Positions 48,853 through 48,976 of a stretch of DNA of 64,000 nucleotides are shown here, piece after piece. The DNA lies in IMG/VR virus record IMGVR_UViG_3300044712_000786, positions 96,001 to 160,000 of that record; one strand, 5' to 3'. Position 1 is the stretch's first letter. Each line of letters opens with the position of its first letter. The notes below the pieces were generated by a model, which was given only the letters and a program-made list of their open reading frames with translations, ran no database searches and was not told the origin of the DNA. The translations under genes were made by a program, and so were the position numbers. This DNA comes from a virus. Its lineage: Duplodnaviria > Caudoviricetes.

Positions 48853-48976
48853 GGATTTCACTAATGTTCCATTAAAAAGTGTGCTGCCAATTACACTACC
48901 GGGGCATAAGCGCCCCAGAGAGGACTCGAACCTCTACTTCCTTCATCATGTCTATCCCTATGGAGGATTTCACTAA
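48853..48976 (-). ncRNA. Circularly permuted tRNA-like RNA (T arm, loop-closed acceptor stem, D arm); Y-RNA/YrlA-like topology
   Basis: AGAGG-TTCGAGT-CCTCT, CTGGGGC-GCTTAT-GCCCCGG, GTGT-AATTGGCA-GCAC; flanked by the 12-bp direct repeat TTAGTGAAATCC. Confidence 0.7.

What the first reader, a model, noticed from the sequence alone, without database searches (positions are those of the whole stretch)
48853..48976. Circularly permuted tRNA mimic (Y-RNA/YrlA-like) flanked by 12-bp direct repeats
Seen: the 3' half of a tRNA (T arm, then CTGGGGC) precedes the 5' half (GCCCCGG, then D arm), joined by a 6-nt loop GCTTAT. The anticodon-stem strands (GAAGG/CTTTT) become the open ends, and TTAGTGAAATCC lies on both sides (48853-48864 and 48965-48976). 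Known: bacterial YrlA Y RNAs have this T-AS-D permuted module and partner with Ro60; permuted tRNAs are also known in some algae and archaea. Inference: a Y-like RNA for the DUF2828 protein about 9 kb away, or a permuted tRNA that is processed through a circular intermediate.
Basis: partly seen in the sequence, partly recalled or inferred. Interest (0 to 1): 0.75.

Follow-up and report, generated by a model that had tools for sequence, protein, structure and literature searches.

The report
Phage tRNA-mimic Y-like RNA, unusual handle
A 203-kb soil phage encodes, among its tRNA genes, a small RNA built like a tRNA turned inside out on a stem, most likely a Y-RNA-like adaptor for the phage's Ro60-shaped protein; its stem differs from the one such RNAs normally carry.

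Summary
On the minus strand at 48958-48852, a T arm, a loop-capped 7-bp acceptor helix and a D arm lie in permuted order inside a closing stem. An independent metagenome assembly has the identical sequence. Un-permuted in silico, ARAGORN calls it a full tRNA cloverleaf.

The "flanking 12-bp repeats" are not insertion scars. They are the 3' strands of two adjacent sister elements. A third copy lies at 55034-54979, and homologues occur in two other large phages.

The DUF2828 protein 8.9 kb upstream has a Ro60 fold (Z 18.5). A covariance model built from 19 permuted tRNA-like RNAs beside DUF2828 genes in other phages hits the candidate at 42 bits. It matches only the tRNA-like core. The family's usual ACAGCAA handle is missing here, although six handle-only copies lie elsewhere in the window.

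The core keeps a canonical tRNA elbow, while 18 of 19 of the phage's own tRNAs do not.

Best reading: a YrlA-like tRNA mimic on a second, sequence-conserved handle. Binding to DUF2828 is inferred, not shown. The permuted-true-tRNA reading is rejected.

This scan has noted the general DUF2828-RNA family before, on other DNA and in this genome. I found no paper or Rfam family for it.

The parts
48852..48958 (-). Candidate RNA ('copy B', about 107 nt): type-2 handle enclosing a permuted tRNA-like head
   Evidence: Sequence. MFE fold gives stem GGGAU/AUCCC, internal loop AG/GAA, AC/GU, UGAUG/CAUUA, an inner stem, then a three-way junction. R1 scores 42.2 bits over 48951-48866. YrlA scores 22.1 bits over 48960-48847.
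48919..48935 (-). T arm AGAGG-UUCGAGU-CCUCU, with canonical U54 U55 C56 and A58
48899..48918 (-). Acceptor-like 7-bp helix CUGGGGC/GCCCCGG capped by the loop GCUUAU
48881..48898 (-). U8 A9 plus the D arm GUGU-AAUUGGCA-GCAC, with G18 G19 present
48963..49005 (-). Sister element 'copy A': the same handle core (GAGGGU-AGAAC ... GU-GAA-AUCCUC) with a small apical hairpin. It holds the upstream 12-mer.
54979..55034 (-). Sister element 'copy C' at the head of the tRNA array, 15 nt before a tRNA-Leu-like gene. A full-length homologue is at L353:3643-3693.
57877..59352 (-). DUF2828+DUF7788 protein (491 aa) with a Ro60-like ring plus vWA fold and an intact MIDAS motif. It is the only such gene in the genome.
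59360..59422 (-). Canonical handle-only RNA (stem-UAACAGCAA-loop-stem), ending just before the DUF2828 start codon
47023..47268 (-). Four tandem canonical handle-only RNAs
35305..35345 (-). Sixth canonical handle-only RNA
49009..49025 (-). Anticodon-arm-like hairpin CUCGC-CUUACAA-GCGAG, in the same inter-tRNA spacer just 5' of copy A. Its role is unknown.

Best explanation
The element is a small non-coding RNA of the YrlA (bacterial Y RNA) type: a tRNA-shaped head mounted on a long closing stem.

Production (inferred): it is made as part of the phage's minus-strand tRNA operon. It is freed when the flanking tRNA-Arg genes are processed.

The head is a T arm, a capped acceptor helix and a D arm. 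It belongs to the family of permuted tRNA-like cores found beside DUF2828 genes in many phages. It keeps every nucleotide needed for a canonical tRNA elbow.

The stem is not that family's usual ACAGCAA handle. It is a second, sequence-conserved handle (stem, AG(A)-AC ... GU-GAA, stem). Two head-less sister RNAs in this phage share it, and so do elements in two other large phages.

Most likely mechanism (inferred by analogy with Ro60-Y RNA-PNPase particles): the stem docks an RNA-binding protein. The best candidate is the phage's Ro60-fold DUF2828 ring. The head presents a host-type tRNA elbow to a tRNA-recognising enzyme, such as PNPase, RNase P, the CCA-adding enzyme or modification enzymes. 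The complex would then be directed to RNA surveillance, decay or repair during infection.

Shown here: the architecture, the membership of the core, the Ro60 fold, and conservation of the handle. Inferred: transcription, processing, and which protein binds.
For: - Architecture and tertiary nucleotides are intact (U8, A14, A15:U48, G18 G19, A21, G46, U54 U55 C56, A58). The un-permuted core is an ARAGORN-valid tRNA.
- Model R1 was built only from other phages' handle-plus-core RNAs. 19 of its 21 pairs have compensatory changes, and the outer stem is never broken. R1 hits the candidate at 42.2 bits, E 1.4e-6. None of the window's 16+ true tRNAs hit.
- R1 gives 81 hits at E<=1e-3 in 83 DUF2828 loci, all on the DUF2828 strand. 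It gives none at E<=0.01 in 868 kb of unrelated viral loci.
- The DUF2828 model (pLDDT 85) matches Ro60 over its full length: Foldseek's top 13 hits are all Ro60, and VIA-align gives Z 18.5 to 2i91/1yvp and 17.1 to phage phiLo Ro60. MIDAS residues are invariant.
- The handle core is conserved in three paralogues and in two other large phages whose DUF2828 is only 33% identical.
- 18 of 19 window tRNAs have a non-canonical T loop, whereas the candidate has UUCGAGU plus GG. It is therefore not a decayed local tRNA.
- Independent assembly confirms the sequence.
- Published precedents: YrlA mimics tRNA and binds Rsr (PMC4201824). Phage phiLo Ro60 binds phage Y-like RNAs and host PNPase (PMC12135203).
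Against: - The canonical ACAGCAA handle that tracks DUF2828 genes is absent from this RNA. The R1 match is core-only.
- Rfam YrlA scores 22.1 bits against a gathering score of 69, and there is no GNCGAA motif.
- The type-2 handle is not enriched near DUF2828 genes in general.
- In G001 the type-2 handles lie 25 kb from the DUF2828 gene, on the other strand.
- The closing stem has no cross-species covariation, because the strands are identical rather than covarying. The MFE is not better than shuffles (z 0.20).
- R1 also scores adjacent tRNA pairs at about 25-35 bits. This does not apply to the candidate, which has no tRNA halves around it.
Confidence: 0.6

Rival explanations
1. The RNA is a tRNA mimic that works without DUF2828. 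The type-2 handle binds a different phage or host factor. The canonical-elbow head acts as a decoy or recruiter for host enzymes that read tRNA elbows. The six ACAGCAA handle RNAs alone serve the Ro60-like ring.
For: - The phage has two distinct handle types, and the ACAGCAA type sits right at the DUF2828 start.
- The type-2 handle is not enriched near DUF2828 genes.
- The type-2 strands are sequence-identical across phages with 33%-identical DUF2828 proteins. That fits a conserved host partner.
- The elbow contrasts with the phage's own tRNAs.
Against: - Both complete phages that carry type-2 handles also encode DUF2828.
- The core itself belongs to the DUF2828-linked family.
- No candidate alternative binder was identified among the neighbouring ORFs.
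Confidence: 0.2
2. The type-2 stems are processing or structural spacers of the tRNA operon, for example nuclease entry sites placed just 5' of tRNAs. The tRNA-like head of copy B would be an incidental passenger.
For: - Copies B and C, G001 E2 and the L353 element all end 15-31 nt before a tRNA 5' end.
- No promoter-like or terminator-like site lies in the spacer.
Against: - Almost everything in these arrays is close to a tRNA.
- Most tRNAs in the array have no such element.
- The head keeps all its tertiary-contact nucleotides and matches a conserved family.
Confidence: 0.1
3. It is a non-functional relic: a family member that lost its ACAGCAA handle through rearrangement and happens to lie between repeats.
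For: - The canonical handle is missing.
- No orthologue of copy B as a whole was found.
Against: - All helices are perfect and the tertiary nucleotides are intact.
- It is enclosed by a 12+ bp helix built from a handle conserved in three phages.
- G001 also keeps a core-only module near its type-2 handles.
Confidence: 0.07
4. It is a circularly permuted gene for a real tRNA, matured by circularisation or ligation and end processing, as in Cyanidioschyzon and some archaea.
For: The order 3' half then 5' half, with a short linker between the acceptor strands.
Against: - Joining the ends gives a loop with A33 and no sensible anticodon.
- The flanks form a continuous bulged helix, not a bulge-helix-bulge.
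- No RNA_ligase family (PF09414) gene was found in the genome.
- Sister family members exist in both permutations with a handle in place of the anticodon loop.
Confidence: 0.03

Closest known systems
YrlA, the tRNA-mimicking bacterial and mycobacteriophage Y RNA bound by Rsr/Ro60 (Rfam RF02553; Chen et al. 2014, PMC4201824)
   Same: - T arm, capped acceptor-like helix and D arm in the same permuted order.
- Closed by a long bulged stem formed by the 5' and 3' ends.
- Encoded in a genome with a Ro60-fold protein.
- A head-less sister RNA lies directly upstream, as with yrlB-yrlA.
   Different: - 22.1 bits against a gathering score of 69.
- No GNCGAA(N)G motif.
- The partner gene is DUF2828/DUF7788, not a Pfam TROVE protein, and it lies 8.9 kb away rather than adjacent.
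- It is embedded in a tRNA operon.
Uncatalogued 'ACAGCAA-handle' RNAs beside DUF2828 genes in phages
   Same: - The tRNA-like core aligns to R1 positions 26-111 at 42.2 bits.
- Same strand and same operon region as a DUF2828 gene.
- The same phage carries six handle-only members.
   Different: The defining handle is replaced by a different, sequence-conserved handle. The usual handle is a covarying 6-7 bp stem, then UAACAGCAA, with a UGUU/UGAU tail. Here it is stem-AG(A)-AC ... GU-GAA-stem.
Thermus phage phiLo Ro60 with Yrl1/Yrl2 and host PNPase (PMC12135203)
   Same: A phage-encoded Ro60-fold ring (Z 17.1 to 9kop) together with phage-encoded small stem-bulge-stem RNAs. It offers a tested model in which the RNP recruits host PNPase.
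   Different: - The phiLo RNAs carry a CGAA bulge motif and lie just upstream of a canonical TROVE gene.
- The phiLo paper's main text contains no mention of 'tRNA-like' or 'YrlA'.
- Nothing has been tested for the DUF2828 branch.
Circularly permuted tRNA genes of Cyanidioschyzon merolae and some archaea (from general knowledge)
   Same: The 3' half precedes the 5' half, and the acceptor strands are joined by a short linker.
   Different: There is no reconstitutable anticodon loop and no BHB motif. The context is bacterial and phage, and the element is a stable mimic rather than a tRNA precursor.

Membership tests
YrlA (Rfam RF02553; Chen 2014) | Permuted tRNA-like module: T arm, capped acceptor-like helix, D arm | tested here: met
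   Sequence; descriptor with shuffle control; ARAGORN accepts the un-permuted form
YrlA (Rfam RF02553; Chen 2014) | Score at or above the Rfam gathering threshold | tested here: not met
   22.1 bits against 69, E 0.029 in a 501-nt search
YrlA (Rfam RF02553; Chen 2014) | 5' GNCGAA(N)G motif, the putative Rsr-binding site | tested here: not met
   The 5' strand reads GGGAUAGACAUG. The motif definition is from PMC4201824.
YrlA (Rfam RF02553; Chen 2014) | Long closing stem formed by the 5' and 3' ends | tested here: inconclusive
   Predicted in the MFE, and the handle core recurs in paralogues and two other phages. But there is no covariation, and the z-score is 0.20.
YrlA (Rfam RF02553; Chen 2014) | Encoded next to a Ro60/TROVE gene | tested here: inconclusive
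   No Pfam TROVE gene in the genome. A Ro60-fold DUF2828 gene lies 8.9 kb upstream on the same strand.
YrlA (Rfam RF02553; Chen 2014) | tRNA-type modifications, RNase P cleavage, CCA addition, Rsr co-purification | not testable with these tools
   Needs experiments
DUF2828-associated ACAGCAA-handle RNAs (model R1, uncatalogued) | Permuted tRNA-like core matching the family model | tested here: met
   42.2 bits, E 1.4e-6, model positions 26-111; true tRNAs do not hit
DUF2828-associated ACAGCAA-handle RNAs (model R1, uncatalogued) | Covarying outer stem followed by UAACAGCAA, with a UGUU/UGAU tail after the 3' strand | tested here: not met
   The local alignment leaves out model positions 1-25 and 112-121. 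The flanks read GGGAU-AGAC and AGUGAA-AUCCC.
DUF2828-associated ACAGCAA-handle RNAs (model R1, uncatalogued) | Same strand as, and within about 10 kb of, a DUF2828 gene | tested here: met
   Gene at 57877-59352 (-), RNA at 48958-48852 (-)
Permuted true tRNA genes | Joining the ends rebuilds a 7-nt anticodon loop with U33 | tested here: not met
   The loop taken from the flanks is UAAUGGA, with A33. Other splice points also fail (hand check).
Permuted true tRNA genes | Bulge-helix-bulge motif at the junction of the flanks | tested here: not met
   The predicted flank helix is 5 bp, a 2x3 loop, 2 bp, a 1-nt bulge, then 5 bp. This is not a 3-4-3 BHB.
Ro60/TROVE proteins (partner candidate) | HEAT-repeat ring plus vWA domain fold | tested here: met
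   AF2 model with pLDDT 85. Foldseek E 5.6e-8 to 4e-5, with Ro60 entries as the top 13 hits. VIA-align Z 18.5, 411 residues aligned, rmsd 4.6 A.
Ro60/TROVE proteins (partner candidate) | MIDAS motif DxSxS...T...D in the vWA domain | tested here: met
   D299, S301, S303, T364 and D396 are invariant in 30 homologues
Ro60/TROVE proteins (partner candidate) | Sequence match to Pfam TROVE (PF05731) | tested here: not met
   No match in the genome at E<=1. Pfam assigns DUF2828+DUF7788. phmmer against the PDB finds nothing.

The most novel reading that the evidence does not exclude
Large phages run two parallel small-RNA 'handle' systems inside their tRNA operons. One is the covarying ACAGCAA handle that tracks the Ro60-fold DUF2828 gene. 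The other is a second, sequence-invariant handle (GAGAU-AGA(C/U) ... AGUGAA-AUCCUC) that docks a different partner, possibly a host one. In this phage all of its own tRNAs have a rewired elbow. The only host-type tRNA elbow is mounted on the second handle, so that host tRNA-reading machinery, which may not recognise the phage's own tRNAs, is captured or redirected.
Probability: 0.22. Interest if true: 0.72.

Novelty: new variant of a known kind. Interest (0 to 1): 0.58.

Why it matters
Ro60-Y RNA particles are a conserved but poorly understood RNA surveillance system. Only a few bacterial examples and one phage example have been studied.

This element supports the view that the very common phage DUF2828 proteins form a second Ro-like branch with its own tRNA-mimicking RNAs. 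More than 6,000 homologues scored in one search.

It also shows that the tRNA-like head can be moved between different handles and between both circular permutations. That points to the head and the handle as separable functional modules.

The contrast between the mimic's canonical elbow and the phage's rewired tRNAs gives a concrete hypothesis to test: which host factor does the mimic address?

Tried and rejected
- blastn of 48000-50000 against GenBank phages: no match.
- The exact T-arm/acceptor 21-mer in viral contigs found only ordinary tRNA 3' halves.
- Loose handle pattern TAGAM..AGTGAAATCC: 118+ hits, at chance level. Only 1 of 121 had a pairable stem.
- Two-copy pattern AGTGAAATCC..AGTGAAATCC: 10 viral and 120+ metagenome hits. 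Nearly all are unrelated tandem or coding repeats. Only L219/L221 were real.
- The 20-base pattern: L352 is a chance hit inside a gene.
- Type-2 descriptors, strict and relaxed, show no enrichment in 83 DUF2828 loci.
- My first loose ACAGCAA finder gave many false positives. A stricter version replaced it.
- R1 hits at L047:17518-17607 and at G001 52.6-52.8 kb are adjacent tRNAs, not mimics.
- G002 is a 49%-complete fragment in which no DUF2828 gene was seen. This says nothing either way.
- Own genome: no TROVE, no RNA_ligase (PF09414) and no PolyA_pol.
- No RNA holder is listed among public runs. The laid runs were DNA contigs only.
- Rfam has nothing for copy C.
- No promoter-like or terminator-like site in the spacer.
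- Hand checks rejected three ideas: the AG/GAA loop as a kink-turn, pairing between the type-2 loop and ACAGCAA, and a conserved CGAA motif in copy C (its L353 homologue has CGAG).
- Pfam and PHROGs gave no function for the four ORFs between DUF2828 and copy C.

Full report
**What is there**

The window is bases 96001-160000 of a complete 202.7-kb phage genome with terminal repeats, from rhizosphere metagenomes. All genes and 16+ tRNA genes in this part lie on the minus strand.

Between two tRNA-Arg genes lies a 219-nt spacer (49055-48837).
- a T arm at 48935-48919
- the acceptor 3' strand, a 6-nt loop and the acceptor 5' strand at 48918-48899
- UA, then a D arm at 48896-48881
- GAAGG and CUUUU, which close the module

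The 12-mer is exact at both stated places.

**Is it more than chance, and is it real DNA?**

- A structural descriptor (perfect T stem, 7-bp capped acceptor, D arm) found it. Shuffles of 1.7 Mb gave only 0-3 hits.
- When the two halves are re-ordered into tRNA topology, ARAGORN calls a complete 72-nt cloverleaf. In native order it calls nothing.
- The nucleotides for tRNA tertiary contacts are all present: U8, A14, A15:U48, G18 G19, A21, G46, U54 U55 C56 and A58.
- A contig from an independent sample and study covers 48713-49177 without a single difference, so the arrangement is not an assembly chimera.

**The repeats**

Folding the whole spacer shows that the upstream 12-mer is the 3' strand of a separate small hairpin, copy A (49005-48963). 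Its stem and internal loop repeat those that close the tRNA-like module, copy B (48958-48852).

The shared core is: stem, 5' AG(A), then AC paired to GU, 3' GAA, stem. A third copy, C (55034-54979), heads the tRNA array.

The exact 10-mer AGTGAAATCC occurs three times in the 203-kb genome. All three are here, on the transcribed strand. So the "flanking direct repeats" are strands of a reused handle, not target-site duplications.

**The protein**

The 491-aa DUF2828+DUF7788 protein (57877-59352, same strand, 8.9 kb upstream) has no sequence match to solved structures or to Pfam TROVE.

Its AlphaFold model (pLDDT 85) matches Ro60 over its full length:
- Foldseek's top 13 hits are all Ro60, with E down to 5.6e-8.
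- VIA-align gives Z 18.5 to Xenopus Ro60 and 17.1 to Thermus phage phiLo Ro60. vWA-only matches reach at most 11.2.
- The MIDAS residues are invariant in 30 homologues.
- PHROGs names the family "RNA-binding protein".

It is the only such gene in the genome. Homologues are very common, with more than 6,000 hits. In related contigs they sit among RNA-repair genes: RlaP, RNA ligases and a CCA-adding enzyme. The phage's own genome has an RlaP homologue.

**The RNA family around DUF2828 genes**

In 80 viral loci centred on DUF2828 genes, the descriptor found the same permuted module repeatedly. It was always on the DUF2828 strand and did not overlap ARAGORN tRNAs.

These modules are enclosed by a covarying 6-7 bp stem followed by UAACAGCAA. 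I aligned nineteen of them. RNAalifold recovered the outer stem, T stem, acceptor and D stem. Compensatory changes occur in 19 of 21 pairs, and the outer stem has no broken pair.

The resulting model R1 gives 81 hits at E<=1e-3 in 83 DUF2828 loci, all on the gene's strand. It gives none at E<=0.01 in 868 kb of unrelated viral DNA. One caveat: adjacent tRNA pairs can score 25-35 bits.

A stricter handle finder gives 268 handles on the gene strand. The opposite strand has 32 and shuffles give 26-36. That is 173 per Mb against 38 per Mb in control loci.

Some phages carry the un-permuted form, with the tRNA ends open and the handle capped in place of the anticodon loop (L004 and L047). This scan has noted the family before on other DNA and in this genome. 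I re-derived it independently. I found no paper or Rfam family for it.

**Where the candidate fits**

R1 hits the candidate at 42.2 bits (E 1.4e-6), but only over model positions 26-111, the tRNA-like core. The window's true tRNAs do not hit.

The canonical handle is absent from the candidate. It is present six times elsewhere in the window as handle-only RNAs:
- one ending just before the DUF2828 start codon
- four in tandem at 47268-47023
- one at 35345-35305

. The four tandem copies match Rfam's Dictyostelium Class I RNA model at 25-29 bits, below its threshold of 41.5.

Rfam YrlA gives only 22.1 bits against 69. The GNCGAA motif of Chen et al. is missing. The candidate therefore shares the architecture of YrlA and the core of the DUF2828-linked family, but it fails a defining feature of each.

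**The second handle is conserved elsewhere**

It is not enriched near DUF2828 genes in general. Specific pattern searches found homologues in two other large phages, both in tRNA arrays, on the tRNA strand, just 5' of a tRNA:
- G001 is 248 kb and complete. It has two handles of this type, plus a core-only permuted module about 420 nt upstream of them. Its DUF2828 protein is only 33% identical to the window's.
- G002 is a 174-kb record that is only 49% complete. Its element is a full-length homologue of copy C.

The handle strands are identical across these phages rather than covarying. That suggests sequence-specific recognition.

**Elbow contrast**

Of 19 detected tRNAs in the window, 18 have a non-U at T-loop position 55 and most lack the D-loop GG. 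The candidate has UUCGAGU and GG, like the family's cores in other phages. It is therefore not a decayed copy of a local tRNA, and it may address host factors that read canonical elbows.

**Verdict**

The element is a real, conserved-type tRNA mimic of YrlA architecture on an unusual handle. That it partners the Ro60-fold DUF2828 protein is plausible but unproven, and the missing canonical handle weakens the link. A true permuted tRNA is excluded on the evidence available.

Noticed in passing
window 59360-59422, 47023-47268, 35305-35345 (minus strand): Six handle-only RNAs (covarying stem, UAACAGCAA, A-rich loop, stem, UGUU). One ends just before the DUF2828 start codon. The four tandem ones match Rfam Dicty_Class_I_RNA at 25-29 bits (threshold 41.5).
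   Followed up: partly
L004:11497-11610 and 11861-11981; L047:17573-17690: Un-permuted versions of the same RNA. They have normal tRNA topology with open acceptor ends (an encoded ACCA in L047). A capped ACAGCAA handle takes the place of the anticodon loop, so the family exists in both circular permutations.
   Followed up: partly
window 36837-54870 (tRNA array, minus strand): 18 of 19 detected tRNAs have T loops such as UGCAAAU (non-U at position 55), and most lack GG in the D loop. This rewired elbow is shared by nearly the whole phage tRNA set.
   Followed up: partly
window 54880-54963 (minus strand): A tRNA-Leu(UAG)-like gene with an encoded CCA. Neither ARAGORN nor Rfam called it. It lies directly after copy C.
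   Followed up: no
window 49009-49029 (minus strand): Anticodon-arm-like hairpin. Its loop region, CCUUACAAGCGA, resembles the CCUUACAGCAA handle motif with one insertion and one change. An alternative pairing, UCGCC/GGCGA, would make it a degenerate canonical handle.
   Followed up: no
window 60240-61604 (minus strand): Adenylosuccinate synthetase homologue in a phage (Pfam E 4e-60). It could be a PurZ-type enzyme for 2-aminoadenine DNA. Not examined.
   Followed up: no
window 49736-50176 and 47545-47814 (minus strand): A PD-(D/E)XK endonuclease ORF inside the tRNA array, and a small C2H2 zinc-finger ORF directly upstream of the four tandem handle RNAs.
   Followed up: no
window 36921-37919, 36077-36661, 62629-63717 (minus strand): A stand-alone vWA protein next to tRNA-Cys, an RNase T-like exonuclease, and a protein with weak protein-kinase and DnaJ matches.
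   Followed up: no
L029:136-189 and L032:7611-7664: Permuted tRNA-like modules in other DUF2828 loci. Their flanks are neither the canonical handle nor the type-2 handle, so this may be a third kind of mounting.
   Followed up: no
L002:1400-1620: A tRNA 3' half, with the same T arm and acceptor as the candidate, preceded by sequence that looks like a group I intron. This probably marks an intron-containing tRNA in a 235-kb phage contig.
   Followed up: no
L219:4422-4512 (minus strand; G001 42111-42201): Core-only permuted tRNA-like module with a tRNA-Glu-type D arm. It lies directly before a tRNA-Met and about 420 nt upstream of that phage's two type-2 handles. No clear closing handle.
   Followed up: partly
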